From: Pirellulales bacterium
Lineage (GTDB): Bacteria > Planctomycetota > Planctomycetia > Pirellulales > PALSA-1355
Direction: 5' to 3'
Length of the DNA: 64,000 bases
NCBI GenBank assembly: GCA_963733035.1
Contig: CAVTBU010000005.1
Coordinates: 1,984,001-2,048,000, forward strand
Shown: piece by piece, positions 1,810-26,284 of the stretch
Position numbering within the stretch: position 1 is the first letter of the stretch
Layout: each line of letters begins with the position of its first letter
Translations under genes and position numbers: made by a program
Notes under the pieces: generated by a model
Databases searched by the model: none
What the model saw: the letters and a program-made list of their open reading frames with translations, nothing else
Told to the model about the DNA's origin: nothing

Positions 1810-1932
1810 CCTGGCACCGCGCGGCACGGTCGTCCGCCGATTCGCCGTTGATGACGTGGTCGATTCGGCCGCCCAGAGAGAACATGCTGGGCGATCGGCT
1901 GCGGTCTGGAGCAGCGATTGCGCTCGGCGGAG

Positions 1933-4778: not shown

Positions 4779-4883
4779 TCCTGGCGCGCCTACCGAGCCC
4801 ATGCGAGATTTGTCGTGAGCAGAGCCTGTTCCGGATCCGAATGGCCCGGTGGCGCGGGAGATTTCGAGCCAGGCCACAGCTCT

Positions 4884-4913
4884 AGGATAATGAGCGGCGC
4901 CGCCAATTTGCAA
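4884..4913 (-). promoter_or_regulatory. Candidate sigma70 promoter for the S53 peptidase gene
   Basis: Minus strand TTGCAA-18 nt-TATCCT, about 105 nt upstream of ATG 4778. Confidence 0.35.
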
Positions 4914-5177
4914 GGATTCTCCGTGCAAAAATCAACTTTCACGATGGCGGCGGGGCCTCATGACCCTCGCAGACCAGCCAAATAGTCGCCGCCAGTCCCC
5001 ACGCCCCGGTAGTTCGAGTTCGTCGCCACCAGTGCCAACTATTCCCACTTGGCGTTTCGGGAGGATACCCGAATTCCTGGCATCTTCCCCACGAAAGGGG
5101 TGCCAAGACGCCGGCAATTTGGCAAATTGGTCGGCACGAGCCGCTGCCTCTGGCGCACAGCGGGTAAGCGGCATTTA

Positions 5178-5480: not shown

Positions 5481-7196
5481 ATGGCAGCCAAGAAACTGGA
5501 TTTTGCTGAAATCCTCATCCGCCAGGGTGTTATCTCCGCCGAGCAATTGGCTGAAGCCAAACGTGTCGCCAGAACGTCCGGCAAGAAAGTGCCGGATCAA
5601 CTCGTCGTACTGGGGTATGCCACCGATGACGAAGTGATGCGTGCGATCGCCAAGGAACATGGCCTCGATTTCATCGATCTGAACGAAGTCATGATTCCGC
5701 CGTCGATCGTGGAACTGGTGCCCGAGTCGGTGGCCCGCGAAAACGCGATCTTGCCGATGGCAGAGGAAGATGGCGGACTGAAGGTGATCGTTAGCGATCC
5801 GTTTGATCTGGAAACGTTCGATAAGTTGCGGTTCATTTTGAACCGCAAAGTTGATATCGCGCTTGCGCCGCGGTCCAACATCCTGGAGGCCATCAACCGT
5901 CATTATGGCCAGATGGAGGACCAGAGCGCCGACTCGATGCTCCAGGAATTCACCGATACGGCCATCGATTTCACCGAAACCGAACAGGAAACGACTGGCG
6001 GCTCCGATGAAGTCATCGACGAGAGCAGCGCTCCAATCGTCCGGTTGGTCCAGTTGCTGATCAGCGAGGCGGTGCAACTGCGAGCCTCGGACATCCACGT
6101 CGAACCGTTCGAGGATCGTGTCCGCATCCGCTACCGTATCGACGGCGTGCTGGTCGAGCGCGACAGCCCACCACGCCGCCTGCTCGGCGCACTTCTTTCG
6201 CGCGTGAAGATTCTGGCCAATATCGATATTGCCGAACGGCGACGCCCCCAGGACGGGCGGATCAAGGTGACCCTGGGCGAAAAACAGCTCGACCTGCGAG
6301 TCAGCATCCTGCCGACCAACCATGGTCAGTCGGCGGTCATGCGGGTGCTCGACAAAGACAGCATCCGGGTGGGCGTCAGGCAGTTGGGCCTGTCGGAGAA
6401 CGATTTTCGGCAGTTCAAAAACTTGATCCGGCGACCCAACGGCATCATTCTCGTGACCGGCCCGACCGGCTCGGGCAAGACGACCACGCTGTATGCCGCA
6501 CTTAACGAGCTAAACCGGCCGGACCGGAAAATCATCACGGCCGAAGACCCGGTCGAGTACTACCTGCCGGGAATCAACCAAGTGGAGGTAAGGCACAACA
6601 TCGGGCTGGATTTCGCCAAGATCATTCGGGCCATGTTACGGCAGGCTCCAAACGTTATCCTGGTGGGAGAGATGCGCGACCAAGAGACTGCTCAGATGGG
6701 GATTCAAGCCTCTTTAACTGGACACTTGGTTTTCAGTACACTTCACACGAACAATGCGCCCGGCGCTATTACAAGAATGACCGACATGGGCGTACCTGGG
6801 TATCTGGTTGCCAGTTCCGTAATGGCCGTTTTGGCGCAGCGATTGGTCCGCGTAGTCTGCTCGAAATGCAAACAACCTTTCACGCCCAGCGACGCACAAC
6901 TGGACGCGGCAGGCATCACCCCGGAGATGGCCTCCACGGCCAAATTCATGAAAGGAAAGGGCTGCGGAAATTGCTCGAAATCGGGTTATCGGGGACGTAT
7001 GGGTATCTTCGAATTGATGATGATGACCAACAAGGTCCGCGAAATGGCATTCGCCGGCGCTCCCACTCAGGAGCTGCGCCGCGTCGCTATTTCTCAAGGC
7101 ATGGTACCACTTTACAGCGATGGCATCCGTAAAGTCATGGCCGGCACGACGACGATTGAGGAGGTCTTCCGCGTGTCCAAGCGGGAGGAGGGGTGA
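5481..7196 (+). CDS. pilB: PilB/GspE-family assembly ATPase, copy 1 (degenerate MshEN N-terminus)
   Basis: ASDIHVEP, RRPQDGRI, Walker A GPTGSGKTT, EDPVEY, VGEMRD, TGHLVFSTLHTN, tetracysteine CSKC...CGNC. Confidence 0.93.
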   Translation: MAAKKLDFAEILIRQGVISAEQLAEAKRVARTSGKKVPDQLVVLGYATDDEVMRAIAKEHGLDFIDLNEVMIPPSIVELVPESVARENAILPMAEEDGGLKVIVSDPFDLETFDKLRFILNRKVDIALAPRSNILEAINRHYGQMEDQSADSMLQEFTDTAIDFTETEQETTGGSDEVIDESSAPIVRLVQLLISEAVQLRASDIHVEPFEDRVRIRYRIDGVLVERDSPPRRLLGALLSRVKILANIDIAERRRPQDGRIKVTLGEKQLDLRVSILPTNHGQSAVMRVLDKDSIRVGVRQLGLSENDFRQFKNLIRRPNGIILVTGPTGSGKTTTLYAALNELNRPDRKIITAEDPVEYYLPGINQVEVRHNIGLDFAKIIRAMLRQAPNVILVGEMRDQETAQMGIQASLTGHLVFSTLHTNNAPGAITRMTDMGVPGYLVASSVMAVLAQRLVRVVCSKCKQPFTPSDAQLDAAGITPEMASTAKFMKGKGCGNCSKSGYRGRMGIFELMMMTNKVREMAFAGAPTQELRRVAISQGMVPLYSDGIRKVMAGTTTIEEVFRVSKREEG

Positions 7197-7607
7197 GAGA
7201 TCGCCTCGCAGCGGTTACTAAGGTCACATTGGCAATTAACAACGACGCCCGGCGGGCGGCCGCTGGGAAATCAAACGAACGAAATTGGGTGGAGTTTTTC
7301 GCGCGGAAAGAGGGAGCCAACCACGACCGCAACCAGACTAATAGGGGGAACACCGTCCTTTCCTATTTCCCCCGGCTGGCGGCGCCAAGCCTTGGCGTAT
7401 CGCGGCGGGGGTCCGAATAATCACTTGGCCATTCGGGCTACCCCGTTTTCTGTGGGGGCCTCAAACGGAACAGTGTGCCTTCGGCCGGTCTGGTCTGTAG
7501 CGAAATTTTCTGACGGCGGCGCGACAACATCGCCTGCCGCCCTGAAACCGTGGAGGCATCCTTAACCGCGTCGGAAGTTCAAACGACCGGCGACAGAGGA
7601 TTTAGAA

Positions 7608-8738
7608 GTGGCTACGGAAACGGTACTCATCGACAAGCTCTTGCATGCCGTCGTGCGGCAGGGCGCTAGCGATCTTCACATTACCGTCGGGCAGCCGCCG
7701 GTGATTCGGCACGACGGTCACATGGTCAAGCTCAAGACCAAGGTGCTCGAGCCGGCCGACACACAGTCGCTGATGAAGAGTATCACGCCCGACCGCTGCC
7801 AGCAGGAACTTCAGGCGGTGGGCGGGTCGGACTTCGGCTTCGCGTTTGGCGATTTGGCCCGTTTTCGCGTGTCGATTTTCAAGCAGCGCGGCAATGTCGC
7901 CATGGTGCTGCGGCAGATTCCCAACAAGCTGCTCACGATGGAGCAGCTGGGACTGCCAGCGGCTTGCGAACGGTTGATTCAACGGCCTCGAGGGCTGTTT
8001 CTGGTCACCGGTCCAACCGGTTCCGGCAAGAGCACCTCGCTGGCCAGCATGATCAACTATCTGAACGAGAACTTCGATCATCACATCATCACGATCGAAG
8101 ACCCCATCGAGTTCTATCATCCAAATAAGAAGTCGACGGTCAACCAACGAGAGATCGGGGTCGACGTACCCAGTTTCTCGGAAGCACTGCGGCGCGCGTT
8201 GCGGCAGGATCCGGACATTATCCTGGTGGGCGAGCTGCGAGACTTGCCCACCATCGAAGCGGCGATCAGCGCCGCCGAGACGGGGCACGTCGTGTTTGGA
8301 ACGCTGCACACCACGGGCGCCCAGGGCACGGTCAACCGCATCATCGACGTGTTCCCCACGACCCAGCAGGACCAGATTCGCACGCAGCTTTCCACATCGA
8401 TCATCGGCGTGCTCTCGCAGACGCTCATCCCTCGAATTGGCGGCGGGCGCTGCGCCGCTCACGAGCTGCTGGTATGCAATTCGGCCATCGGCAACCTGAT
8501 TCGCGAGAATAAGACCTTCCGCATCACCTCGGCCATTCAAACGGGCGCCAAGCAGGGCATGATCCTGCTCGACGACGCGCTGTTTCGGCTGTGGAAAGAA
8601 CAGAAGTGCACGAAACAAGACTTGCTGGCCAAGGCCGCCTCGCCCGATGAATTGGCCGCCCGCATCGCCAATGCCGAGCGGGGCATGTTCGACGAGGAAG
8701 ACGGGGAGAAGGGAGACGGAGAGGGCAAGAAGAAATAG
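7608..8738 (+). CDS. pilT: PilT retraction ATPase
   Basis: GASDLH, GPTGSGKST, TIEDPIEF, ALRQDPD, AETGHVVFGTLHT, AIGNLIRE (AIRNLIRE-like); GTG start after AGAGGA. Confidence 0.93.
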   Translation: MATETVLIDKLLHAVVRQGASDLHITVGQPPVIRHDGHMVKLKTKVLEPADTQSLMKSITPDRCQQELQAVGGSDFGFAFGDLARFRVSIFKQRGNVAMVLRQIPNKLLTMEQLGLPAACERLIQRPRGLFLVTGPTGSGKSTSLASMINYLNENFDHHIITIEDPIEFYHPNKKSTVNQREIGVDVPSFSEALRRALRQDPDIILVGELRDLPTIEAAISAAETGHVVFGTLHTTGAQGTVNRIIDVFPTTQQDQIRTQLSTSIIGVLSQTLIPRIGGGRCAAHELLVCNSAIGNLIRENKTFRITSAIQTGAKQGMILLDDALFRLWKEQKCTKQDLLAKAASPDELAARIANAERGMFDEEDGEKGDGEGKKK

Positions 8739-8821
8739 TCGGTATTCACGACCCGCGCGGCACGGCAACAAATCACGATACACAGCACCGCATAGCAACA
8801 ACTCAATAGGCGTGACTTTCC

Positions 8822-10540
8822 ATGGCAATGCGTCGTCTCGGTCAAATTCTGGTGGATCTGGGATTCATCACCGATGATCAACTCGAACAGTTGCTCGAGG
8901 ATCACCAGGCGAGCCCGGGCATCCTCATCGGCAAATTTGCCGAGAGCCAGAACCTGATCAACGAGGAGCAATTGGCCCAGGCCGTGGCCGAGCAGTGGGG
9001 CATGCAGGTGGTCAACCTGGCCGACATTGTCGTGCCGCCCAACGTGCTCTCGATGGTCACCGAAACGATGGCCCAGATGTATCGCATCGTGCCGATCGCG
9101 TTTCGCGACGACTCGCTGACGATCGCCATGTGCGACCCGCAGAATCTGTCGATTCAGGACGAGTTGCGCACCTTCCTGGGTTATGAAATCCGCTCGGTCG
9201 TAGCCACCGAACGCGACGTACTCAAGGCGCTCGATCGGTACTACGCCGCTAGCAACGAAAGCGTTGAAAGCCTCGTGCAGGACATGGATGCCGACGAGGA
9301 GCTGGCCGCCGCGGCCGCCGCCGCCGGCAAAGAGGGGCCCATCGACCTGACCAGCGTCGAGGCCCTGGCCGACAGTGCCCCGGTGCGCAAGCTGCTCAAT
9401 ATGGTTCTGCTGATCGCCATTCGCGATCACGCCAGCGACTTGCACTTTGAACCGTTCGAAGATGAATTCCGCATTCGCATCAAGGCCGACGGCGTGCTCT
9501 ACGAAATGGTGCCGCCGCCGCGCCACCTGGCCTTTGCCATCACCACCCGCATCAAAGTGATGGCCAACCTGGATATTGCCGAGCGCCGCATGCCGCAGGA
9601 CGGCCGCATCGAACTGACCGTTGGTGGCCACCCGGTCGACCTCCGCGTCAGCGTGCTGCCAACCATGTTCGGCGAGAGTGTCGTCATGCGGGTGCTCGAT
9701 CGCTCGGTGGTCTCGCTGGACCTGAACAAGGTGGGTATGGATGCGCCCACGATCAAGGGCTTTCGCGAGATCATGCACAAGCCTAACGGTATCGTCCTGG
9801 TAACCGGGCCGACCGGTTCGGGCAAGACCACCACGCTTTACTCGGCCCTGTCCGAGATGAACCAGATCACCGATAAGCTGATCACCACCGAAGACCCGAT
9901 CGAATACGACATCGACGGCATCGTGCAAGTGCCCATTGACTCATCGATCGGCAATACGTTTGCCATGTGCCTGCGGGCGATCCTGCGTCAAGATCCCGAC
10001 AAGATCCTGGTGGGCGAGATTCGCGACATTGAAACGGCCGAGATTGCCGTCCAGGCTTCGCTCACGGGTCATACCGTGTTCAGCACGCTGCACACCAACG
10101 ACGCCCCCAGCACGATCACGCGATTGCGCGACATGGGCATCCAACCGTTTTTGATCACCGCCACGGTGGAAGGCATTCTGGCCCAACGGCTCGTGCGGCG
10201 CATTTGCACGCAATGCCGCGAAGTCTCAGTCCCCAGCAGCGAGATCCTGCAGGACCTTGACTTGTCCCCTTCGGATCTGGCCGGCAAGACCTACTACAAG
10301 GGGCACGGTTGCGATGCCTGCAATAACACCGGATATAAGGGACGCGTAGGCCTGTTCGAACTGATGATCATGAACAACAACCTGCGCGACATGATCATGC
10401 AGGATGCTTCGACCGAAGAACTGCGCGACGCGGCCCGCAGCTACGGTATGATCACGCTGCGCGACAACGGCATGAGTGCCGCCAGCGACGGCCTGACCAC
10501 GCTCGAAGAAGTTGTCCGCGAAACCGTGATGGAAGCCTAG
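8822..10540 (+). CDS. pilB: PilB/GspE-family assembly ATPase, copy 2 (MshEN domain)
   Basis: N-terminal RLGQILVDLGFITDDQLEQLL; Walker A GPTGSGKTT; LRQDPD; CTQC...CDAC. Confidence 0.93.
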   Translation: MAMRRLGQILVDLGFITDDQLEQLLEDHQASPGILIGKFAESQNLINEEQLAQAVAEQWGMQVVNLADIVVPPNVLSMVTETMAQMYRIVPIAFRDDSLTIAMCDPQNLSIQDELRTFLGYEIRSVVATERDVLKALDRYYAASNESVESLVQDMDADEELAAAAAAAGKEGPIDLTSVEALADSAPVRKLLNMVLLIAIRDHASDLHFEPFEDEFRIRIKADGVLYEMVPPPRHLAFAITTRIKVMANLDIAERRMPQDGRIELTVGGHPVDLRVSVLPTMFGESVVMRVLDRSVVSLDLNKVGMDAPTIKGFREIMHKPNGIVLVTGPTGSGKTTTLYSALSEMNQITDKLITTEDPIEYDIDGIVQVPIDSSIGNTFAMCLRAILRQDPDKILVGEIRDIETAEIAVQASLTGHTVFSTLHTNDAPSTITRLRDMGIQPFLITATVEGILAQRLVRRICTQCREVSVPSSEILQDLDLSPSDLAGKTYYKGHGCDACNNTGYKGRVGLFELMIMNNNLRDMIMQDASTEELRDAARSYGMITLRDNGMSAASDGLTTLEEVVRETVMEA

Positions 10541-10681
10541 CGGAGACGACTGCTCACCAGAAACGACCAACACGAGATCAACATACAGCCGGCCCGTCGA
10601 TGGCCGAAACTAAAGATCGATCAATAAACGGAACCTCCGCAGTACAGTACCCTCGTAGCACAGCGAATCAGGATCACGGCC

Positions 10682-12013
10682 ATGCCTACTTATCAATTCG
10701 AGGCCATGGACTCCACGGGTCAGGAGATCAAGGACGTTATCGACGCCCCGAGCGAGGAAGAAGCCCAGGCGACCATTCGCCAGATGGGCTATTTCGTCAC
10801 CAAAATCGCGGTCAAGAAGCAAAAGAAGACCGCGGCCGAAAAAGCCAAGGGGGGCAAAAAACGTAGCTTCGCCGTCGGCGGCGTCAACTCCAAGGTTCTG
10901 ACCGCCTTCACGCGCCAACTCTCGATTCTGCAGGACGCCGGCCTGCCGATTCTGCGCAGCTTGCGAATTCTCGAGCAGCAGAGCAAGCCAGGTCGGATGA
11001 AAAACAGCCTGATGGACGTCTGCGACGAGATCGAAGGCGGCTCCACGCTCTCCGAGGGCATGGCCAAGGCGCCCAAGGCTTTCAACCGGCTCTACGTCAA
11101 CATGATCAAGGCCGGCGAGGCGGGCGGTGCGTTGGAAATCATTCTCCAGCGCCTGGCCGACTTCCAGGAACGATCGCAGTCGCTCAAACGCAAGATCAAA
11201 GGCGCCATGATCTACCCGATCGTGGTCATCTCGGTGGCGGTCGGCATCTTGACCTTCATCATGATCAAGATCGTCCCCTCGTTCGTGTCGATCTTCGAGG
11301 ACTTTGAAGTCGATCTGCCGCCGATGACCGTGTTGCTGATTGCCATCTCCAATGGCGCCGTCAACTACTGGTACCTGATTCCGGGCATTCCGATCGGCTT
11401 CTTGCTCTTCATCAAGCTGTTGCGCAAATTCAATGCCGGACGCGTCGGCTGGGATATGTTCATCCTCAAAATGCCGATCTTCGGGCCGTTGGTCGAAAAG
11501 AACATTCTGGCCCGCACCACGCGAACCCTGGGCACGCTGGTTTCCAGCGGCGTGCCGATTCTCGAGGCGCTTAACATTACCCGCGAAACCTCCGGCAACG
11601 CGGTGTTCGAATATATGTTCGCCAAGGTCTCCGAGTCGATTCGCGAGGGCGAGTCCATCTCGAAGCCGATGAAAGAATTCTCGCAGATGACGTTTCATCC
11701 CATGTGCGCGTTTTTCTGGGCCCTGTTTTGCGGCGGCCCGATCGGGCTGCTGCTGTACATGGGCCGCATGCGGTCGCGCGTGGTCGACGACCTGACGGTC
11801 AACATGGTCGACGTGGGCGAGGAAACCGGCGAATTAGACACCATGCTCTACAAGGTGGCCGACACCTACGACGAAGAAGTCTCGGTGCTCACCGAAAGCC
11901 TGGTCAGTCTGATGGAGCCGCTTTTGATTATCTTCTTGGGTGGGGCAGTCGGGTTCATCGTCATATCACTCTTTATGCCGCTGGTGGCCCTGATTACGAA
12001 CTTGAGCGGCTAG
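10682..12013 (+). CDS. pilC: PilC/GspF inner-membrane platform protein
   Basis: FTRQLSILQDAGLPIL, AGEAGGAL, AMIYP, VGEETGELD, LMEP; three canonical TM segments. Confidence 0.93.
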   Translation: MPTYQFEAMDSTGQEIKDVIDAPSEEEAQATIRQMGYFVTKIAVKKQKKTAAEKAKGGKKRSFAVGGVNSKVLTAFTRQLSILQDAGLPILRSLRILEQQSKPGRMKNSLMDVCDEIEGGSTLSEGMAKAPKAFNRLYVNMIKAGEAGGALEIILQRLADFQERSQSLKRKIKGAMIYPIVVISVAVGILTFIMIKIVPSFVSIFEDFEVDLPPMTVLLIAISNGAVNYWYLIPGIPIGFLLFIKLLRKFNAGRVGWDMFILKMPIFGPLVEKNILARTTRTLGTLVSSGVPILEALNITRETSGNAVFEYMFAKVSESIREGESISKPMKEFSQMTFHPMCAFFWALFCGGPIGLLLYMGRMRSRVVDDLTVNMVDVGEETGELDTMLYKVADTYDEEVSVLTESLVSLMEPLLIIFLGGAVGFIVISLFMPLVALITNLSG

Positions 12014-12090
12014 GGAAGTTTCGCAGCACAACCATTTCACAACTCGAACGTCCTCCTTCGCCGCGCCCGCGGGGCACGCGCGAAGGCACC

Positions 12091-12129
12091 GTCGGCGCCC
12101 CCGGAGACAGCAGGTCTCCTGGCGCCGGC
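12091..12129 (+). terminator. GC-rich hairpin downstream of pilC (possible terminator or stabilising stem)
   Basis: gtcggcgcc/ggcgccggc outer stem and ggagac/gtctcc inner stem; no U-tract. Confidence 0.3.
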
Positions 12130-12136
12130 TCGCGGC

Positions 12137-12278
12137 CTGTTGAAGAATTCAGCGGGCTGCGACATCGCATGGATGCGATGACGAAATAGACGGCGTAAGT
12201 CGTCATTTCGCGAGCGGTGCGGAGCTTGGCTCCGCACTTCGCGAGGTTGAAAAATGTCACGAAGGCATTTTTCAACAG
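12137..12278. mobile_element. MITE-like / dispersed palindromic element with terminal inverted repeats and four internal hairpins
   Basis: TIRs ctgttgaagaat (12137-12148) and atttttcaacag (12267-12278), 11/12 match; hairpins catcgca/tgcgatg, cgaaat-gacg/cgtc-atttcg, gtgcggagc/gctccgcac, gttgaaaaatg/catttttcaac. Confidence 0.65.
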
Positions 12279-12439
12279 ACAGTTAAGAACGATGAACCAC
12301 CACCGGCAGCACGGCGGCCTGGCGGACCTTCCGCCGGGCGAGCCGGTCGTGTTGCCGCCAAACGACAGCCACACAGCGCGTCCACGAGGGGCGCGGCCAC
12401 GAGCGAACCACGAGAGCGAAAGTAGCAAGGAACCCAGCG

Positions 12440-13533
12440 ATGCCCGAACCCAGCCCGCACGAACCGGCCCCGTCCCCCGCGCCTCGCCGCGGATTCACCC
12501 TCACCGAGCTGCTGGTGGTGATCGCCATCATCGCCATCCTGGTGTCGCTCACCAGCGTGGCCGTGATGACGGCGATGACCAAAGCGAAGCAGACCCGCAT
12601 CAAGGTCGAGCTCGACCAGATCGACTCGGCGCTCAAAGCCTACAAAGACAAGTACGGGGCGTATCCGCCGTGCAATTTGGCATTTAATGAGACCGGGATC
12701 CCGTCGACGAGAACAGAATCGACGCCTGGCGGTTGTTCAGGCAGCACCTGGCATTGGCGTTTCCGCGATACGACACGAGTCAACCTTCAAAACTCACCTG
12801 CAGAACGACCTTACGAATGCGGGCATCGACTTATACTAACGTTCGGCCCGGACCAGGCACTGGTGTTTTGGTTGCAAGGGTTCAGCTCGAATCCGCTCAG
12901 GCCGATTTTCAGCGTGAACAGCAAACAATGTCGATGAACAACAGCGAGGTACGGAGCTTGGCGTTATCCAGCGTACCAATGCTTTCTTCGAGTTCGACAA
13001 GACGCGGCTGCTTGCGAAAGCGAGTGTCCTGCCTGCGACCAGTTATATCGCGCCTTCGTATTTTCCCAGCGGGGTGAAGACCACTCTCCGCGGACGCGGT
13101 AGCCGCTGGAGCCGGACCCTATGTCTATTGGGATTCACGGTCGTATGGCGAAACGAACCACTCCGATGGGATGCGCCGGACCACGAGTGACCATGCTGAA
13201 TACGTTCAACCCAACACGTTCAAAGCCCATAGCTGACGGTGTTTTCCAATGCCGGGGTGACCTGTCCCTATTGGCACGACCGCAATGGGAACGCGTCCAC
13301 CAATCAGCCGGCGGACTTCAACAGCCAGAGAATCGTGGTGCAATCCCGATTCGTTTCAGCTCATCGCTTGCGGGGGCGATGGCAAGTACGGCTCAGGTGA
13401 ATCCTAACCCAACGACTGACGCAGCGGCTCTACCCGACCGGCACGAACTATGATCCCTCGACGAGCATTAGCCGATGACGACAACGTGACGAACTTTACC
13501 AATGCTTCGCGGATTGGAGATGATCGGCCATGA
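12440..13533 (+). CDS. Type IV pilin / pseudopilin 1 (large, GspG-like N-terminus), multiply frameshifted
   Basis: PRRG|FTLTELLVVIAII, 'ALKAYKDKYGAYPP'; later blocks (RQHLALAFPRY, QALVFWLQGFS, FFEFDKTRL, NPDSFQLIACGGDGKYG, DDDNVTNF) fall in different frames; TGA 13531-13533 overlaps the next ATG. Confidence 0.75.
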
Positions 13534-14903
13534 TGCGTCGCAGTGGGTTGCTCACGTCCGTCGGTCGCCGCGGGTTTACGCTCGTGGAACTGCTGATCAC
13601 GGTCAGCATCGTGGCGATCATGGCCTCGATGGTGCTGTTCGCCATGTTCCAGGCCCAGGACGCCGCCCGCGCAAAAAACCCGCACGCAGATCGCGAAGCT
13701 GAACAACATCATCATGCAGCGGTACGACGAGTTCCGGACGCGGAGGGTGCCATACACATTCCCGCCGCCGAAGTTTGCCGCGACGGCTCTGCCGGCAATT
13801 AAGGCTCAGTACTACAACGAGATCTCTCGCGCCCGGCTCGATTGTCTGCGCGACCTGATGCGGATGGAAATGCCGGACCGGATGAATGACATTGTCAATC
13901 CACCCGCATCGGCTCCGGTAACTCCCTTTCCGCACTCGCTGCCTTCGACTGTCATGAACGCATATTCGGGCTACATGGCAGCCCCGGTGCTTTATCAGCA
14001 GTACTACGCGCGATACAACGCCGCCACCATCGCGAACCCATCTAAGTGGCCCAACTATGATCACGAAGGCGCGGAATGTTTGTACATGATCGTAATGGCC
14101 TCGGTCGCTCAGCAGGGGGACGCTCGCGAAGTTTTCAAGAGCAGCGACGTAGGCGACACCGACGAAGACGGCTTGCCAGAATTTCTCGACGGCTGGAATC
14201 GACCCATTGATTTCATTCGGTGGGCGCCCGGCTACCTGTCGGTTTTGCAGACGCCGATCAGGGTTACGGGCACGGTAAATGCAAACGGCCAAACGGCAAC
14301 GCTTAATGTGACGGGCAACTACGGTCAGCGGCTTTCGCAGACGCCAGGCTCGTACATTGGCGGCGCGGCGATCTTGATCGACCCGACGACGCAGATGATG
14401 GATACGAGTAAGATGGGGAGGATCACCGGTTACAACTACACGCTCTCGCCGCTGTCGGTTACGTTTAGCTTCGAAGTTCCGAGCATGAGCATGCTTCCGC
14501 CCACCGCGAATCCATTTGGTGGAAGTAGCACGTCGGGTGAGTTCGTCATCCTGCAGCCCGATCCCTTCGATTCGCGCGGTTCATATCCTTGGTACGCTGC
14601 CGCGTCGACATATCCTGCTTTGGCAAATCCCACGTTTCGCCTCTACCCGCTCATCCTCAGTGCCGGTCCGGACAAGGTCTTTGGAATCATCCATGACTGG
14701 CAGATTCCCGCGGGATCTGGCAATTATTACAACGCTGCCGCTCCGTCGGTGCGGCTGAATCCGTTTTACGTGCCGCCACCAATCTCCGAATCATTCGGTC
14801 AGGCGTTGGCTCGACGCTCTATCACGTTACCGCTCCCGAGCCAAATTGGTATCGCGGCTGCGATGTCGACAACATCTCGAACCACAATCTCAATCAGAGG
14901 TAG
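13530..14903 (+). CDS. Type IV pilin / pseudopilin 2 (large), frameshifts near 13680 and 14810
   Basis: RRG|FTLVELLITVSIV; body in ORF 13714 (AECLYMIV, GDTDEDGLPEFLDGW, PLILSAGPD); alternate-frame end 'DVDNISNHNLNQR*'. Confidence 0.78.
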
Positions 14904-14906
14904 ACC

Positions 14907-16333
14907 GTGCGCGGCGGCAGGCGGACAATTCGACGCGGGCGGCGGCGTGGGGTGACGCTGTTGGAGCTGTTGATCGTGATGGTGATCTTGCTGATGATCA
15001 CCGCGGCGGCGATTCCGATCGTCGTGCCGGCTACCCGCAACCGCCAGATGCGCGAAGCCACGCGGCTGGTCACCACCTATCTCGGCGCCGCCAAGGCCCG
15101 CGCCGTGCAAACCGGCCGACCGGCCGGAGTGATGATCGAGCGATTCAACGGCAACGCGTTCGCGCTGCAGATGTCGCAAGTCGAAGTACCGCCACCGTAC
15201 GCGGGGGACATTCAACGTACTCAACAGACGAGTGGGGCGTTACCAGATAAGGGGCAACGTGACGAGTGCAACGAACAACGGCGCGGGACAAGTTCGCATC
15301 ACGACAGCGGCCCCAATTCCACTGGCATTAGAAACGGATTCAACGTGACGATGGCTGGCGTAATGGGAACCACGAAGCAAATGGGCGATGGAAGATTACT
15401 AACAATCAGCACCCACTTCGATTTACAGGGAAGCGCGTTCACGAATACATACACGAGCGGAGGAACCTTTTCTATCGAGTGCTGGCCATGCGTATTGCAG
15501 CTAGGCGCAGCGGATACCCAGTGGCAGAGCCTACTCAGATACGGAGATCAGGTGCGTCTGGATTATCGTGGTCTGCTTTATACGCTTACATCGGTGCCGA
15601 CGCCATTGCCGGCAACGGCAATCCCCTGGAAGTGGCAGACGATCAAGCAACCGCCTCCTGGAAATCGCCACCGACGGGAACTGGTTTCTGGCGGCAACGG
15701 GTGGCAAGCAACCGTTGACGCCAATCTGTTGTCAAAGTCCCTTACAGGTCTTTCGCCAGCCGGTGCGCACAATCACGCCGCCACTGTTGTTGCCGGATGG
15801 CATCGTGGTCGACCTGGCTATTTCGGGCGTTGGAATCGGAGGAAGTTTCACCCGTGTTCCTATAGCAGGCGATGACCGTCGCCAACGCCACCGCTTCCGC
15901 CGACTGTAGTTACTCGATCCGATGATTATCTTCTCTCCCAGCGGGCGTCTCGAGTGGGTAACCAATCCGCACGGGCGACTCATTCGTCCACTCGACTCGG
16001 TCTACCTGCTGATGGGTCGCCGCGAATTGATGTATGACGTGACATCGAAGAGTAATCCAAATGCCAGCTAAACAAGACATAGTCTCACAGAATCTCAGCC
16101 CAATTTCCAAGACAGCGGGCCTAGACCAACCCCACCCGAAAACTTTTGGATCTCAATCGGCTACCAGACGGGACTAGTGACGGTTGCTGAAGTCGCGCCG
16201 CACATCCAGGACTAAATTCCAGCCCCACTACGCCGCCACTTCCAATTGTGACTTTGACGCAAGTCGATACGTAAGCCTCCCAACTGCCCGCGCGTTCGCC
16301 CAGCAATCGCAAAGCTATGTGGGAGGGCGGTAG
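14907..16333 (+). CDS. Minor pilin, FimT/FimU/GspH-like, multiply frameshifted
   Basis: RRRG|VTLLELLIVMVIL, 'AKARAVQTGRPAGV'; later blocks QVFRQP..PLLLPDGIVVDL, IIFSPSG, NFWISIGYQTGLVTVAE and end 'QQSQSYVGGR*' are in other frames. Confidence 0.7.
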
Positions 16334-16335
16334 AC

Positions 16336-17503
16336 ATGCGGAAGTGGCAACTGGACACAACTGGCGCATGCGATCTCCCCGCGCGGCCGGCCCGGCGGCG
16401 GGGGATCAGCTTGTTGGAAGTGCTGATCTCGATGTTCGTGCTGGCGATCGGGCTGATGGGCGTGGCGGCCCTGATTCCCGCCGGCCGGCACGAAATCGTC
16501 GAAGCCATCAAGCTCGAAAACGCCGCCATGGTTGGCCGCGGCGCCTTCCGGGATATCCAAATCCGCGAGTATTTGAATCCGGAGGAACTGGATGGGATCC
16601 AACAAGACCGGAGGAGACGTGGCAATGTACCGGGACGTACGGTATACGACTCGACACCACTCCCGCGACGCCGTTCAATATCTATCAATCCCGACGAAGG
16701 AACTGTACCAGGCAACGGCTCGCAAGTTGCCTTCGCAATCGATCCGCTGGGATTGACGGCCTCGACCACCTATGGAAATGTCTTTCCCTTCACGGTCTGA
16801 GCGGCCCCACGCCTCCGCTCCGCTTCGTCGCATCCTGCCGTTCAAGCCGGCGTCGAGCGATCCCGCCAACATGCGGGCGGCGTTCGATACGATCTTTCGC
16901 GGCTCGTTCGATCAGGTCACTCAGCCGAACACTGCCAGCAAGGATCTGCCGCCAAATCAGCAGTACTTTAATAACGGCACGACCTACCTTCGCCGCGCTT
17001 CGGACGGCAACTACTCGTGGATGGCCACTGTGGTTTCCGATCCGACCAAGTCGGCACTCGACGCCGAGGTGACCGTCTCGGTGGCCGTGTTTTATAAGCG
17101 GACCTTGCTGACGACGACCGACGCCGGCGGCAGCCCTGTCGCTGTCGGTGAATACATCAGTCAACTCAATACGTTCCCGGTACTGCCGATGACCAGCGGC
17201 GGCCAGGCGATCCTTTCCCAACTGCCGAACGACACGACCGGAAAAATGGTGTCGGTCAAACCAGGGCAGTGGATCATGCTTGGCGGGCGGCAACTTGCCT
17301 CGGCCGGACCTCCTCCGACCTATTACTACCACTATCGCTGGTATCGCGTACTTTCCGCCGCTCCGGCGAACACTTCAACGCAAACCCAGCAAGTCACCCT
17401 GGCCGGCCACGACTGGAACATTTCAAACGTCAACAGCCGGGCCTGGATCTTCGACAACATCGTCAGCGTGTATGAAAAGAACTTGCCGCTGGAATTTGAA
17501 TAA
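16336..17503 (+). CDS. Minor pilin, PilV/GspI-like, frameshifted near 16790
   Basis: RRRG|ISLLEVLISMFVLAIGLMGVAAL, FAIDPLG; continues in ORF 16772-17503 (GNYSWMATV, VSVAVFYKR, WYRV, IVSVYEK). Confidence 0.75.
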
Positions 17504-17586
17504 GTGCCGGAACAACCGGCAGGCGGGACGAGGGGCAAACAGTGACGGCAGGCCGGGGCGACCTGCCAGATGAGGAACCGACCGTG

Positions 17587-20500
17587 ATGAGACACTTGCC
17601 AACGCGCACTCCCCAGCATGATCTCGAATTCCGGCGACCAGGCACGAGCCGTCCGCGCGCCGCCGCGCGGCCGCGCCGCGGGGTGCTGTTGCTGGTGGTG
17701 CTGAGCCTGCTGATTCTGTTTTCGCTGATCGCGGTTACGTTCGTGCTGGTGGCCGGCCGCTACTACGACACAGCCCGCAACTCCGTCCGCATGGAGCAGA
17801 CCGGCGACAACCCCCAGCGGTTGCTGGAAGATGTGCTGGCCCAGTGCGTCCGCGGCACGACCAACCCGCACAGCGTGCTCCGCGGCCACAGTTTGCTGGA
17901 AGACCTGTATGGGAATGATGGGATTACATACAGCGATACGACGAACCATCTGGAAGTCATGACGTACTCGGCGTCCAGCTGGCAACCGATCGCGCCAGAC
18001 AAAGTGGGACAAATTATCGACCTGAGGTTTCGGCCAAGTGGTAGCGGAATCAAATTCGTGTCCTACCCGGGTGTTTCGCTGCCGGTCACTTACACGCCTC
18101 CCTACCCGCTCAGCCTGCAGCAGGCTCAAACGCCGGGCTATTTCAACGGCTGTGTGTTCACGGCGCTAGGGGGCGCTGCCGAAGGCAAGAGTACTCGGAT
18201 CGTCGGGCTGGGGACTCGTGAACGATATTACGTCGTTCGGGTCTTGGCGTTCGACGGCGTCACATTTACCCAACTCAAAACAACCCTCCGACCGGTTTTG
18301 TGATCAATGGCCGGCCGTTCAATGGCACGGGATTTGGATTCAATCCGAACGATCCATCGCCAGGGACGTCCCCCACGCTGTTGAGTGCGACCGAAACGAT
18401 CAGCGGAGCAGCCCCAGCCGATCCCCTTCGCACTGCTGCCCAATCCGGTACTCGCCGATCCGGCGAATCTAAATCCGTTGGCGAGCGTATCGGGCGGTGT
18501 GACGCATTATCCACAGTTCGGAGGCATTGGTGGAGCGGACGAAGACTACGACGCCCCCGATGCACAAAATATGCTGTTGGCGCACATCCCGATGTCGGTC
18601 CCCAGTGGTGCTACCTACCCTGGCGACAATCATTCCCTCGCTGCATCGCCCGGAGACCATCCTCTACGTTACCACAAACTTCACTCCGGGCACCGACGAG
18701 AGCCACGAAACTGTTGAACCAGCAGGTCAATGCTGAGGCCGCACACCGAGCGGCTTGCGAAATTCGCCACACATCCACAATTCCCGTACATCGATATCAC
18801 CGGCGGGCCATATGACGTCGACAACGATGGCGACGGGGTTGCGGAAAGCATTTGGGTCGACGCGGGACTGCCGGTACGTACCGCACCCGACGGCCGGACC
18901 TATAAGCCGATGGTTGCCATTTTGTGCCTGGATCTGGATGGCCGGTTGAACGTAAACGCCCACGGCAACGTCGGCACAAGTGGACTCGTATTACCTGGGA
19001 GCGACTCCCACTGCGTATACCGGTCTTGACCATCAATGCGAAGCAGCTGCCAACCACCCTCACCGTCACCTCCCCCAATCTGACACGCGGCCACGGCTAC
19101 GGGCCGGCGGAGATTAGTTTGTTCCCACTGTTTGTGCCGACCGGCACAACGACCGCGCCGACGACGTATCTGCAGCTGGCAATACTTCGCAATGTTGTTG
19201 AACTCCCGTTACGGTGAACCGAACACGAGGCTGTATGATCTGGCGCACGATCCGAGGCAAAGCATATACAATGATGCCGTATAACTCGAAGTCCCACGGC
19301 CGCAGCAACTGGAAGCCAAAAGGTCCCGAATTACCCGGGAGCTACCAGCTATGCCGATCTCTTGGCGGGACTGAACTTCACGCACTACCCGTATCCGTAT
19401 CCACTCACGCCGCCGCCGCTTCATTCCTTTCAGACGCCAACGGACTTGTCGGGCCGCGCCTTCACCGTACTCGACGCACGGGGCATGCCGCTGCCGATCT
19501 ACACGGACCGGACGACCGACATTCTGGATAGCCCCTATGAGTTGAATTTGAGCCGCAAAGCCGTGCGGTCGGCTTCATCGCCCAGCTTTACTCCGACGTC
19601 GATCGCGGCGGCCATCGCCGGCACGACACCCAATCCGCTGGATACGCCGTTTTCGCCGGCGGAGTTGGAACGGATTCTGCGAATGTATGATCTTGGACTC
19701 CGCCGATCTGCCCGATCGGCTGCGGTCGTTGGTTGAGCGGGACGCGGCGGCCCGGCACTCGACTTGCTGCGGAACATCATCACGACCGATAGTTTCGATC
19801 TTCCGGTGCCGGCGATCCTGCCGACGCGCGACATGCGAAGGGCCAATGGCGCTGCGAAGCCAATCATCTCGCCGTCGATGTCGGACTTGTTGCGCGTGAG
19901 GATGAATGCGGCGGGCTTTGCTGGCTCGTTCCCGACCGAAGTTGCGAAGATGCTGGCGCCGGAACTGGTGGCCGGTCTGCGCATGGACGTCAACCGCCCG
20001 TTCGGCAATGGCCGCGACGACAACAATAACAACATTGTCGACGAACCGTTGGAAATGCCGGAGTCGGCCTATTGGAACACGACCAACATGTCGGTGCCGG
20101 CCCGGTTCACGACCTCGCCCGTTCCGACCAATCCGGTCAACGGCATCGACGTGAACAACAACAATTTGGGAGACGATAACGCCCTGGCTCGGCAACTCTA
20201 CGCGCGGCATCTGTACATCTTGATGATGCTGCTGAAGGACGAGAACTTCCAAATTGACTACAACGGAGACGGCTTCGCGGGCAGCACCGCGGATCAAGTG
20301 GAAACCGCCTATGCCATTGCGCAGTGGGCGGTGAACGTAGTCGACTTCCGCGACCGCGATTCGATCATGACGCCGTTCCAGTTCAATATCTATCCATTCA
20401 AGGACGGCTGGACGGCGACCAACGATCTGTATAACCCGCCTGCCAATACGGGGCTGGTGTGGGGCTGTGAGCGGCCTGAACTGTTGATTACCGAGACCCT

Positions 20501-22946
20501 GGCATTCCACGACCGGCGCACGGAGGACCTGAGTACCGAACCGAATGGTCATACAACCACGGACCTGATGATGCCAGATGCCGACTACGATCAACGCATC
20601 CCGCCCCGGGGATCGCTGTTCGTGGAGCTTTACAATCCGTGGGTGACGCAGAGCACGGTCACGAATGCCGGCAATTTGCCATCGGCTTACGAGGTGCCGG
20701 GGGAGTTTTATAGCGTCAATACCACGGCCAACACGGCAACCGGCGTAAATCTGAATGCCACGTCTCTTAACGGAGGCTCGCCGGTTTGGCGAATGCTGAT
20801 CACGCTCGGCAGCGCCATTCAGACCAACGGGCAACCGAAAGACCCCGACCATCCATTTCCGGCCTACGCTCCGACGCTTGCCGAAATTGAACGGAGCATC
20901 TACTTCGTGCAGCCCCCGCAGACGATCACCGGCGACGGTCAGAAGTATTTCCAAAATCGGCTGGTCGCCCCAATTCTTCCCGGGCGATATGGCGTGATTG
21001 GTTCGGCGGGTCTCGCCAACACCCTCGGCGGTACCTATACGACAACCATTGGGCGACTTGTCCAGACGGCCAGCAATACGGCCGACACAGCGCATGATGG
21101 TAATGCGCAAGTCATCAACACGCGGCGGATCGTACTTTCACCGAGCGCAAATCCCGCGACGCCCCAAGTGCAGGTACTGCTCAATGGCTCGGCTCCAAGC
21201 TTCTCCGACATTCAGCCGCCGATCGCCATCGTGATCGACCAGGCGCAGGACGCGACGGGAAATGTCACGCCGCGTTCTATTAGTGTTTCAGAACCAACCT
21301 ATGGTTATCTCGCCGGCACGACGCAGGCCTTTCCCGCGGAACCCATTGTTTACAACCCAGTGCAGGACGTACCTCTGGACAACGCGAATCCAGTGGCTCC
21401 GATGAGCAATCGGCTGTGGCGTTTCATTCACCTACAGCGGTTGGCTGATCCCACGCTGCCTTACAGCCCCAAGACAAATCCGTACCGCACGATCGACACC
21501 GCACCGATCGCACTTTCAGTTTTCAATGGACTTACGCCACCTGGTACAATCGAGGCGATTTATACACCAACCGGGGTCTGTTCCACACAACGCGGCACAC
21601 AACAATCTGGCGTGGATAAGCCCATGCCGAACCTGCTTTGGGTTTATGAGCCGCAGGTGGCAGCCATCACTTCAATCGCGGACGGCAGCAACACTCACAA
21701 CGTTCCGTTTTTCGTCAGTGAATCGCTTGGATACTTGAATCAGGGATATGGCACGGCCGGAAATGCGATGAGCACTTTCACGTCGTCTTCAACCGCGCCG
21801 AGCAGTTATAGGGGATCGCCCAACGTTCAACCATTTCCCTGGCTCAACTGGAACAACCGTCCGTACGTGGGGCAATTAGAGCTGATGATCGTGCCCAAGA
21901 GCCGTTCGTCGCGGTTGACGCTGGAATACGCCCCAGACTTGGATCTAGACGCGACAAATCCCCACCACCCGTACGCCGGCCACGTGACAAGCACCAGTCA
22001 CCTGTTTCCATTCTTCGATACGGTTGCGGCATCGCAACCCGTGCCACCTAATCTTCATCGCGTGTTTGAATACCTGACAGTTCCATCGCGATTCGTGGGA
22101 ACGGAAACCGAGCTCGACCCCCAGACGATGAACGCCTTGCCCGCGTTCGACACCACGGGCGTCGAACAGACGTTAGTGTCGTTTTTGCATCCGCCGTTCA
22201 ATCGCGTGTCGAACTACCGAGAGCCGGGACGGATCAACATCAATACGATTTCCAGTGACTATGTTGCAACTGCTGGAACGTCACAATCTACTGTCTGGAA
22301 CGGAGTGCTGAATGCATCGGCGGGCGACACGATCCTCGCGGGTACGTCGCTGAACTGGCTCGCAGTAGCGCAAAGCCGCCAAGGAAAATCGTATCCGTTC
22401 CGACCGACGACCGGCAATTTGGATTCAACGTCGATATTTGGCAACCCGTTCCGATCGGCGGCCGGTGAAGCTCTATTGCTTCCGCTTACGAAGTACTATG
22501 CGGATCGGGATGAGGTCGACGTCACGTTGTTCCGTCCTGTCAACCCGGCAACGAATGCCCCAGCCACGGACACGCCGCTTTTCGGCTACACGTCGACACA
22601 GTTGCACAACAATTCGAGCCGCAATCCGTACTTCAGGCACCAGCACTTGCAGCGGATTAGTAACGTCGTCACCACCCGCAGCAACGTCTACGCCATCTGG
22701 ATCACGGTCGGCTATTTCCAGGTGCAATCGCCGCCGCTGGATTCCACGGGAACTGCGTTGCCCTTCGGTCCCGGCACGCCCTATCCGGACGGCTATCAGT
22801 TGATGGCGGAGATGGGGAGTGATACGGGGGAGGTGGAGCGGCATCGGGGGTTCTATATTTTCGACCGCTCGATTCCGGTGGCCTTTGAGCCGGGCAAGAA
22901 CCACAACTTCGAAGAAGGCCTGCTGCTGCGGCGGTTTATCGAGTGA
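17587..22946 (+). CDS. Giant PilX/GspK-like tip pilin (~1,780 aa if rejoined), multiply frameshifted between ~18200 and ~19760
   Basis: RRG|VLLLVVLSLLILF lacking E5; blocks DEDYDAPD, DVDNDGDG..DLDGRLNVNAHG, QWAVNVVDFRDRD, FVELYNP, REPGRININT, TTRSNVYAIWITVG; final 1,060 aa intact. Confidence 0.72.
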
Positions 22947-24674: not shown

Positions 24675-24677
24675 GGC

Positions 24678-26012: not shown

Positions 26013-26046
26013 GGAAAAACTCTGGCGTTTCTGTATATTCCGAGTG

Positions 26047-26110
26047 CGAAGCGCGAGCGGAGCTAGGGACCGCAATCGTCCATTGTCCTCGCTGGCGCTG
26101 CGGGCTAGTG
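26047..26110. repeat. REP-like imperfect palindrome in the fhcB/cupin intergenic region
   Basis: Arms cgaagcgcgagcg (26047-26059) and cgctggcgctgcg (26090-26102) pair at 11/13; the right arm continues 'ggctagtg'. Confidence 0.5.
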
Positions 26111-26284
26111 CCTCAATGGCGATCGGAAATCGTGGGACTTGAGTTTGGCTCATGCCCAAGGGTCCGATTCCGCGATTAGCATGTAGGCAGGCATTACGGG
26201 CAGACTCTATATTCTGTCATCGGTCTGCAGCAAACGCCAGCGCAAAGAGCGCCCGCACCCCGCCAAAACCATCCGGAGAGACCT

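What the first reader, a model, noticed from the sequence alone, without database searches (positions are those of the whole stretch)
5481..22946. Non-canonical type IV filament system: two extension ATPases, PilT, only oversized pilins and a giant tip subunit
Seen: pilB1-pilT-pilB2-pilC followed by five class III signal proteins of roughly 360, 455, 475, 390 and 1,780 aa. There is no small major pilin, secretin, PilMNOP or prepilin peptidase in the window. Known: T2SSs lack PilT, typical T4aP use one PilB and a small major pilin, and planctomycetes carry poorly understood fibres linked to macromolecule binding and uptake. Inference: a retractile filament with a very large, variable tip complex (adhesion or substrate capture), comparable to verrucomicrobial Verru_Chthon cassettes. 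This is the best candidate here for an under-described system.
Basis: partly seen in the sequence, partly recalled or inferred. Interest (0 to 1): 0.75.

Follow-up and report, generated by a model that had tools for sequence, protein, structure and literature searches.

The report
Planctomycete retractile pilus with giant tip
This gene cluster, conserved across planctomycete bacteria, encodes the motors of a type IV pilus together with unusually large fibre subunits and a roughly 1,780-residue predicted tip protein, and it likely builds a retractable attachment fibre, which makes it a testable candidate for the sugar-binding fibres seen on these cells whose genes are still unknown.

Summary
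Real, conserved, and a variant of a known machine. pilB1-pilT-pilB2-pilC are intact. These are probably assembly errors: 0-1 stop codons, clustered, intact in 11 of 12 relatives, and 38 of 175 control genes in this assembly are also frameshifted. The rate is still about 9 times background, so decay is not excluded.

The 'missing' parts lie elsewhere in the genome: a pilM operon with a 1,307-aa secretin, a prepilin peptidase, and an orphan PilW/GspJ-like pilin predicted to bind the cluster's PilV-like pilin. The set reads G, G, H, I, (J), K. K is a GspK-fold protein with a lamin-tail-like insert, found in 131 of 151 genomes of the order. The two PilBs are old paralogues; in this class only PilB2 keeps the c-di-GMP motif.

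Best reading: a retractile type IVa-like pilus for attachment or polymer capture. No function was shown. I found no paper describing the cluster, but this scan already reported the same system three times in Phycisphaerae. It is not a Verru_Chthon family member.

The parts
5481..7196 (+). PilB1, extension ATPase with MshEN domain; first c-di-GMP motif degenerate (RLG replaced by DFA)
   Evidence: PF00437 + PF05157; TIGR02538 621.7 bits, below cut-off 675.65; Walker A/B, His box and four Cys intact; 0 frameshifts
7608..8738 (+). PilT retraction ATPase
   Evidence: TIGR01420 446.7 bits over cut-off 319.1; AIGNLIRE motif in the translation (motif name recalled)
8822..10540 (+). PilB2, extension ATPase with MshEN domain keeping the RLG motif
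   Evidence: (TIGR02538 628.9 bits; NF053729 E 3e-11); about 41% identical to PilB1
10682..12013 (+). PilC/GspF inner-membrane platform
   Evidence: PF00482; intact
11678..11773 (+). About 32-residue hydrophobic insertion in the second cytoplasmic domain of PilC (bounds approximate)
   Evidence: present in 10 of 10 PilC of the same order, absent in 7 of 7 other planctomycete PilC and in the genome's GspF
12440..13533 (+). Pilin 1, large GspG-like subunit; 10 frameshifts in this assembly
   Evidence: N_methyl and weak T2SSG/gspG hits; model's two best matches EpsG Z 3.2 and PulG Z 3.1, weak; frameshifts
13530..14903 (+). Pilin 2, large GspG-like subunit; 1-2 frameshifts
   Evidence: three GspG-type tail motifs in order in 13 of 13 homologues, compared with the genome's own GspG; N-terminal part homologous to pilin 1
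14907..16333 (+). Pilin 3, FimU/GspH-like; 6-8 frameshifts
   Evidence: best NCBIfam hit gspH, below cut-off
16336..17503 (+). Pilin 4, PilV/GspI-like; 1-5 frameshifts
   Evidence: best hit TIGR02523 PilV, below cut-off; the G002 orthologue is predicted to bind the orphan J
17587..22946 (+). Giant GspK/PilX-like tip pilin (about 1,780 aa when intact) with a lamin-tail-like beta-sandwich insert and DxDxDG motifs; 10 frameshifts in 18.2-19.7 kb, none in the last 3.2 kb

Best explanation
The cluster encodes two extension ATPases, a retraction ATPase, a platform protein and five large pilin-like subunits that likely form the motor, shaft and tip of a retractable type IVa-like pilus, which would be used for attachment to and capture of surfaces or polymers. 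Shown: gene identities and order, conservation, and unlinked pilM-secretin, peptidase and J genes. Inferred steps: (1) PilD cleaves the leaders. (2) The giant K protein, which lacks Glu5, sits at the tip, binds the I-J pair and H, and supplies its own last beta-strand, doing the work of PilX and PilY1 in one chain with the lamin-tail-like insert as the binding module. (3) PilB1 and/or PilB2 on PilC polymerise a thick shaft from the GspG-like pilins 1 and 2, and perhaps from the dispersed DUF1559 pilins. (4) The fibre leaves through the 1,307-aa secretin held by the PilM-N fusion. (5) PilT retracts it. PilB2 is likely c-di-GMP-responsive and PilB1 likely is not. The frameshifts in this copy are probably assembly errors.
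For: PilT over cut-off and two PilB with intact catalytic motifs. pilB-pilT-pilB in 13 of 20 loci read across the phylum. PilB1 and PilB2 sort by position in a 58-row quick tree; B2 is one clade, SH-aLRT 99. Unlinked PilM-N fusion, two single-TM proteins and a secretin; PilM in 36 of 40 genomes. J in 38 of 41 relatives and inside the cassette in 17 of 24 planctomycete loci checked. I-J complex score 0.77, best control 0.00; that mark was reached by 116 of 157 solved and 2 of 215 mismatched pairs; runs agree in at least 86% of contacts; partner pLDDT at least 70; a pass may reflect likeness to solved GspI-GspJ. K model (pLDDT 66.5, pTM 0.76) matches XcpX Z 5.7 (rmsd 4.1, 177 aligned) and GspK Z 5.5 (rmsd 4.4, 190 aligned) over residues 20-1185, and lamin B1 Ig Z 6.3 (rmsd 3.2, 111 aligned) for the insert. 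PilY1-less systems use a K with a large insertion and a cis strand (PMC13533445 passages). R. baltica pilT RB12773, pilB RB12774, pilC RB12781 and pilM are induced by salt (PMC2754498). 12-nm fibres bind dextran (PMC5394234).
Against: No experiment links these genes to any fibre. All structural Z scores are below 8, which the tool says can be a common arrangement; Foldseek found nothing at E<=0.001. Both PilB score under the TIGR02538 cut-off and only 16-30 bits better than against GspE. Pilins 1 and 2 carry GspG-type (endopilus) tails, and a 1,780-aa tip must pass the secretin. The link to the pilM-secretin operon is by inference only. G009 (94% complete) and G014 (96%) keep PilM-N, the large secretin, J and 24-33 DUF1559 matches but show no motor pair or K. 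Three genomes of one family have pilB-pilB without pilT in the locus and no PilM hit. Frameshifts here are about 9 times the assembly background and are not enriched at homopolymers.
Confidence: 0.6

Rival explanations
1. It builds a short periplasmic endopilus (T2SS-like piston) that moves cargo through the large secretin, outward or inward, with PilT resetting it; no long surface fibre is made.
For: Pilins 1 and 2 have GspG-type tail motifs and best weak matches to EpsG/PulG. K has the GspK fold rather than the small PilX form. No small type IVa major pilin among 32 class III hits in G000.
Against: G000 has a separate complete T2SS with GspE, F, G, H, I, J, K and a GspD with Secretin_N repeats. 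T2SSs lack PilT (PMC6668835 passage). PilM-type alignment protein present. Thermus type IVa pilins also resemble pseudopilins (PMC5131608 abstract).
Confidence: 0.17
2. It is a competence pilus: the giant K tip binds DNA and PilT pulls it to ComEC, as with ComZ in Thermus.
For: ComZ is a tip pilin with a large inserted domain that binds DNA (PMC6561018 abstract). G000 has ComEC. A weak ComEA-like match (Z 3.4, 63 aligned) lies in the K model.
Against: ComEC is near-universal (10 of 14 controls). The ComEA-like match can be explained by the helix-hairpin-helix motifs that GspK proteins carry (for the genome's GspK). No competence gene was seen in the loci read (ORF lists, not a targeted search).
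Confidence: 0.1
3. In this particular organism the pilin cassette is decaying into pseudogenes while the motors are kept for other pilins. This concerns this copy only, not the system.
For: About 25 consistent frameshift sites in 10.5 kb against 0.27 per kb elsewhere (Poisson p about 1e-15). Sites are not enriched at homopolymer runs (32% vs 39% background). The motors have none.
Against: 0-1 stop codons per comparison against 28-33 indels. Sites are clustered, with a 3.2-kb clean stretch (p 0.004). Identity to relatives is the same in the broken (52-56%) and clean (49-57%) parts of K, and GC3 is similar. 38 of 175 control genes are frameshifted. Zero frameshifts in the 6-kb motor block is expected at background (p 0.2).
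Confidence: 0.12
4. The cluster supplies only motors and tip. The shaft is built mainly from the dozens of dispersed DUF1559 pilins, swapped according to nutrient state.
For: 36 PF07596 matches in G000; 6 to at least 50 in 23 of 23 Planctomycetia and 0-4 in 17 others. G002 and G003 lack the T2SS GspE and GspG yet have 41 and 33 matches. One such pilin gene sits behind a cobalamin riboswitch.
Against: A second, minimal filament locus with its own DUF1559 pilin exists in G000, G002, G003 and G014, although its platform protein was found in only 6 of 40 genomes. G009 and G014 keep DUF1559 genes without the motor pair. G041 and G094 have the cassette with few DUF1559 matches.
Confidence: 0.25

Closest known systems
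Type IVa pilus (Myxococcus xanthus, Geobacter, Thermus; pilB-pilT-pilC plus pilMNOPQ, pilD, FimU-PilV-PilW-PilX-PilY1)
   Same: PilB, PilT, PilC, PilM, secretin, PilD and an H-I-J-K minor pilin set, spread over several loci; MshEN domain on PilB.
   Different: Two ancient PilB paralogues in one operon; no small major pilin; all pilins 2-6 times the usual size; K about 1,500-3,000 aa; PilM fused to a PilN-like part; 1,307-aa secretin; no PilY1 found (search inconclusive).
Type II secretion system (GspE/F/G/H/I/J/K; PDB 3ci0, 5vtm, 5wda)
   Same: K has the GspK fold; pilins 1 and 2 have GspG-type tail motifs; the I-J pair is predicted.
   Different: PilT present; PilM-type alignment protein; two motors; the genome has its own ordinary T2SS elsewhere.
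PilY1-less tip pilins with large inserts: Caulobacter CpaL, Thermus ComZ, V. cholerae PilX (PMC13533445 passages; PMC6561018 abstract)
   Same: A large insertion inside a K-type pilin, proposed to carry the binding function and a cis terminal strand.
   Different: The insert here is lamin-tail-like and the protein is about three times longer; no sequence relationship was tested or found.
Verru_Chthon cassette (TIGR02596/98/99/600) and Akkermansia MUL2 pilus-like locus (PMC13174399 passages)
   Same: PVC-superphylum pilin cassettes; MUL2 is tied to glycan attachment and uptake.
   Different: No TIGR02600 hit for K; the other models match only the leader helix, far below cut-off; MUL2 is a pilM-centred locus with another gene set.

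Membership tests
Type IVa pilus | Retraction ATPase PilT | tested here: met
   TIGR01420 446.7 vs cut-off 319.1
Type IVa pilus | Extension ATPase PilB | tested here: inconclusive
   TIGR02538 is the best family for both copies (621.7, 628.9) but under the cut-off 675.65 and close to GspE scores (605.3, 598.8); no tree with characterised PilB/GspE was built
Type IVa pilus | Platform PilC | tested here: met
   PF00482
Type IVa pilus | PilM, secretin and prepilin peptidase in the genome | tested here: met
   PilM_2 and a secretin in one operon on C5 at 1.21-1.22 Mb, A24 peptidase on C6; their use by this cluster is inferred
Type IVa pilus | PilN, PilO, PilP | tested here: inconclusive
   A TM-bearing extension on PilM and two single-TM proteins in the right places, with no Pfam hit
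Type IVa pilus | PilA-type major pilin (about 140 aa, range 42-297) | tested here: not met
   No PilA-type small pilin among 32 class III hits in G000; the only ones under 200 aa are T2SS GspG/GspI, broken cassette genes and two short DUF1559-like frames. All 29 hits in G003 lie in frames of 217 aa or more. The candidates are GspG-like, 264-457 aa mature
Type IVa pilus | Minor pilins FimU/PilV/PilW/PilX (H, I, J, K) | tested here: met
   Best-hit families below cut-off, synteny, missing Glu5 in K, predicted I-J pair
Type IVa pilus | PilY1/PilC adhesin | tested here: inconclusive
   No PF05567 hit, but the control genomes gave none either
Type IVa pilus | Surface fibre that extends and retracts | not testable with these tools
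   needs microscopy and mutants
Type II secretion system | One GspE and no PilT | tested here: not met
   two extension ATPases and PilT in the operon
Type II secretion system | GspK-fold tip pseudopilin | tested here: inconclusive
   Z 5.5-5.7 to 3ci0_K and 5vtm_X over the whole model span, under the tool's Z 8 caution; no PF21687 hit
Type II secretion system | GspG major pseudopilin (PF08334, TIGR01710) | tested here: not met
   TIGR01710 44.4 bits or less vs cut-off 88.85, N-terminal part only; tail motifs alike by eye and regular expression, but hhalign aligned only the leader
Verru_Chthon cassette | Proteins A-D (TIGR02600, TIGR02598, TIGR02599, TIGR02596) over their cut-offs | tested here: not met
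   K: no NCBIfam hit at E<=0.01 for 4 intact homologues or the window fragments; D 40.6 or less vs 70; B 16.8 or less vs 51.4; C 24.6 vs 256.5 for the first J

The most novel reading that the evidence does not exclude
This operon with the unlinked 1,307-aa secretin is the molecular identity of the large crateriform structures and their 12-nm dextran-binding fibres. It is a two-motor retractile pilus with a fused K/adhesin tip, whose shaft draws on a library of tens of nutrient-regulated DUF1559 pilins to capture polysaccharides, vitamins or metals and pull them into the enlarged periplasm.
Probability: 0.2. Interest if true: 0.85.

Novelty: new variant of a known kind. Interest (0 to 1): 0.55.

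Why it matters
Planctomycetes take up whole polysaccharides and carry 12-nm fibres that bind dextran (PMC5394234, passages). A 2025 review says the mechanisms and players are still unknown (PMC12673574, passage). This cluster gives a short, order-wide conserved list of genes to delete in genetically tractable species. It also offers two general questions in pilus biology: why an operon keeps two ancient extension motors that differ in a c-di-GMP motif, and how a fibre assembles from 300-450-residue subunits under a tip of 1,500-3,000 residues. The components are all of known kinds, so the novelty is in the combination.

Tried and rejected
Sequencing runs: none was listed for window:12400-22300, so the frameshifts could not be checked against reads; this is no evidence either way. 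Homopolymer signature at frameshift sites: not enriched, so a simple homopolymer error model was rejected. Stop read-through or another genetic code: not needed, since the breaks are indels with 0-1 stops. Rfam: nothing in the window. Promoter and terminator scans: at shuffle level. PDB sequence search with the K profile: 0 hits at E<=5; with the pilin 1 and 2 profiles the significant hits cover the leader helix only. Foldseek: no match at E<=0.001 for either model. hhalign of K against the genome's single GspK (probability 4%) and of pilin 2 against the single GspG (leader only) did not show homology beyond the leader. A C-terminal K query found only 5 of 201 genomes across the phylum although cassettes exist in more distant groups; single-sequence searches under-report K. 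K was not found in plasmids. No ESM Atlas result was obtained. PilY1 search inconclusive. My early idea that PilB1/B2 are the only possible motors for DUF1559 pilins in G002/G003 was weakened by finding a second minimal locus there. The PilB tree is the quick tree (careful search unfinished), with no characterised outgroups, so no origin is claimed. Literature: ten full-text searches listed no paper describing this operon. PMC6668835 has no occurrence of 'planctomyc' in its main text, but its supplementary tables, which may class these systems, were not read. Subscription papers, including the Fimbriiglobus ruber study cited second-hand, were not seen.
Full report
OBSERVATION. The motor block is as described. 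PilB1 (5481-7196), PilT (7608-8738), PilB2 (8822-10540) and PilC (10682-12013) are open frames with the expected Pfam domains. PilT passes TIGR01420 (446.7 vs 319.1 bits). Both PilB score best against TIGR02538 but under its cut-off. Walker A, Walker B, His box and the four cysteines are intact in both. Downstream lie four class III leaders and one Glu5-less leader. The genes are tightly packed: pilin 1 stop overlaps pilin 2 start, and the next two gaps are 2-3 bases.

THE PILIN GENES ARE BROKEN IN THIS ASSEMBLY. A frameshift-aware alignment to three same-genus relatives needs 28, 33 and 31 frameshifts and 0, 1 and 1 stops; the same aligner needs none in 10 of 10 comparisons between intact relatives. 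25 of the 28 sites recur in at least two comparisons. The four motor genes need none. As a background I called 234 genes in 400 kb of G003, tested 193, and kept 175 as orthologue-like: 38 are frameshifted in G000, 52 shifts in 192 kb. So the assembly is indel-prone. The cassette rate is still about 9 times higher. For error: almost no stops, clustering (3.2-kb clean gap, p 0.004), and equal identity in the broken and clean parts of K. Against a simple error model: no homopolymer enrichment. No reads were listed. Strain mixture in a variable region is my inference. The cassette is uninterrupted in 11 of 12 relatives read (G004 has breaks in pilins 1 and 2), and K is whole in four single-contig, 99%-complete genomes with the same gene order. 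G012 is also broken.

THE REST OF THE MACHINE IS ELSEWHERE. Contig C5 at 1.21-1.22 Mb holds a 724-aa PilM with a TM-bearing extension, two single-TM proteins (410 and 537 aa) and a 1,307-aa secretin with weak TPR and STN hits. An A24 peptidase lies on C6. A complete ordinary T2SS (C5, about 150-164 kb) and a Tad locus (C5, about 310-319 kb) are separate. A 454-aa PilW/GspJ-like pilin stands alone on C7. It occurs in 38 of 41 relatives. Of 24 planctomycete loci I picked from the 52 returned, 17 have it inside the cassette: 13 before K, in the I-K gap, and 4 just after K, including Rhodopirellula sp. SWK7; 7 show no cassette gene nearby. The G002 I and J proteins gave a complex score of 0.77 against a best control of 0.00. 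That mark was reached by 116 of 157 solved and 2 of 215 mismatched pairs; the runs agree in at least 86% of contacts and partner pLDDT is at least 70. Because GspI-GspJ structures exist, the pass may show likeness only.

WHAT THE PILINS ARE. Pilin 3 scores best as GspH and pilin 4 as PilV, both below cut-off. Pilin 2 carries the three tail motifs of the genome's own GspG in order in 13 of 13 homologues. Pilin 1 shares the last two in looser form (129 and 140 of 150), and its low-confidence model (pLDDT 63.5) ranks EpsG and PulG first at Z about 3. The pilin 1 profile hits 1,322 50%-identity clusters at E<=1e-30. K has 723 homologues at E<=1e-10 among 7,992 scored; the named ones among the 120 listed are all 'hypothetical' and none has a Pfam domain. 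It lacks Glu5 in 97 of 97 with a recognised leader (of 120). It occurs in 131 of 151 genomes of the order, in frames up to about 3,080 aa. A model of the last 1,200 residues of the G039 K (pLDDT 66.5, pTM 0.76) aligns with XcpX (Z 5.7, rmsd 4.1, 177 residues) and GspK (Z 5.5, rmsd 4.4, 190) from residue 20 to 1185. Residues 476-869 match DUF4876 (Z 7.1, rmsd 5.0, 198) and the lamin B1 Ig domain (Z 6.3, rmsd 3.2, 111). These Z values are modest, and the N-terminal 350 residues were not modelled. The set therefore reads G, G, H, I, (J), K. Homologue names place the genome in or near Pirellulales.

TWO MOTORS. Of 20 loci read across the phylum, 13 show pilB-pilT-pilB, 3 show pilB-pilB without pilT, 2 show pilT-pilB and 2 a lone pilB; 4 have the large-pilin cassette directly downstream, and G160 has it elsewhere. 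In a quick tree of 58 rows, all 30 PilB2 form one clade (SH-aLRT 99) apart from the 26 PilB1, so the pair is old. No characterised outgroup was included. In 13 Planctomycetia the MshEN RLG motif (its c-di-GMP role is recalled; NF053729 hit) is kept in 11 PilB2 and 0 PilB1. In other classes a looser motif is in 8 of 13 PilB1 and 14 of 17 PilB2. PilC has a hydrophobic insertion in 10 of 10 genomes of the order and 0 of 7 others.

MECHANISM. Best reading (0.6): a retractile type IVa-like pilus. K caps the tip and likely supplies its own terminal strand, as described for PilY1-less systems with large K insertions (PMC13533445, passages). In my model the last residues are helical, but the pilin helix and J were absent, so this step is untested. 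Large GspG-like pilins would give a thicker fibre than the 6-7.5 nm of ordinary pili (PMC11046646, passages), in line with, but not proof of, the 12-nm dextran-binding fibres of P. limnophila and G. obscuriglobus (PMC5394234, passages). In R. baltica, pilT RB12773, pilB RB12774, pilC RB12781 and pilM RB2860 are induced by salt (PMC2754498, passage); that these are the orthologues is inferred from names and tag numbers. In Singulisphaera, pilus genes including PilT rose on chitin, mostly Tad genes (PMC11279305, passage). Rivals are an endopilus piston (0.17), a competence pilus (0.1), and, for this copy only, decay (0.12).

WHICH SUBUNIT FORMS THE SHAFT. G000 has 36 PF07596 (DUF1559) matches. 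All 23 Planctomycetia tested have 6 to at least 50, against 0-4 in 17 others. The T2SS GspE orthologue is missing from 10 of 37 genomes, including G002 and G003, which also lack GspG. One DUF1559 pilin follows a cobalamin riboswitch, a lead from earlier scan notes. Against: a second minimal locus (short ATPase, GspF-like genes, small pilins, a DUF1559 pilin) exists in G000 and G003, with close platform homologues in 6 of 40 genomes. G009 and G014 lack the motor pair and K while keeping PilM, the large secretin, J and DUF1559 genes; this may be an assembly gap or real loss. The question stays open (0.25).

COMPARISON AND NOVELTY. It works like a type IVa pilus but fails strict membership on the major pilin. 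It is not a T2SS (PilT, two motors) and not a Verru_Chthon cassette. Ten literature searches listed no description of the operon. Seen as passages: PMC6668835, PMC12673574, PMC5394234, PMC11279305, PMC11046646, PMC13174399, PMC13533445, PMC2754498 and bioRxiv 10.1101/2024.01.10.575047. Seen as abstract and outline only: PMC6561018 and PMC5131608. Supplements were not read and may class these systems. This scan has noted the same architecture three times in Phycisphaerae; those notes are not independent evidence. New here are the Planctomycetia form, the displaced J, the unlinked secretin operon, the motif asymmetry between the motors, the PilC insertion and the frameshift analysis. Verdict: new variant of a known kind, interest 0.55.

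Noticed in passing
G000 C5:625,000-632,300 (L109); G003 L107:6856-14071: Second, minimal type IV filament locus: ATPase of about 400 aa without the N-terminal domain, GspF-like genes (one 861 aa), small 140-170 aa pilin-like genes and a DUF1559 pilin in the major-pilin position; no secretin or PilT seen beside it. Platform homologues in 6 of 40 genomes.
   Followed up: partly
L042:9075-18467 (G000 C5, 1.21-1.22 Mb): pilM operon with a 724-aa PilM fused to a PilN-like part and a 1,307-aa secretin with TPR-like N-terminal region; the long PilM form is typical of the Planctomycetia sampled.
   Followed up: partly
L099:2996-4269: Cobalamin riboswitch (RF00174, 86.9 bits) directly upstream of a DUF1559 pilin gene; already noted by earlier scan findings.
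   Followed up: partly
L045:4554-7400 and 10876-12399: Two short secretin-domain genes lie about 3.5 kb from the orphan J gene in G000; in G003 the nearest secretin hit on the J contig is over 200 kb away, so the link may be chance.
   Followed up: partly
G000 C5:2.50 Mb, C5:1.88 Mb, C4:90 kb: Three further PilT-like genes and a divergent PilB-like gene beside one of them.
   Followed up: no
L111:266-16492 (G014): A different filament locus with pilins, PilM-like genes, a 750-aa secretin, regulatory genes, an MshEN-type PilB and PilC.
   Followed up: no
L032:9594-12392 (G013): Pilin 2 is duplicated in tandem, giving six pilin-like genes.
   Followed up: no
window 45671-47087 (-): Flavin amine oxidase split into two overlapping ORFs covering the two halves of PF01593, probably another assembly frameshift.
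   Followed up: no
window 22989-26159 (-): Amidohydrolase (PF07969) and its upstream partner look like formyltransferase/hydrolase complex subunits A and B of the planctomycete C1 pathway (names recalled, not tested); convergent with the K gene.
   Followed up: no
window 1737-4928 (-): 1,063-aa protein with a bacterial Ig-like domain (PF19077) transcribed divergently from pilB1; conservation beside the cluster not checked.
   Followed up: no
window 44013-45623 (+): Aspartyl-protease-like protein with a PEP-CTERM motif.
   Followed up: no
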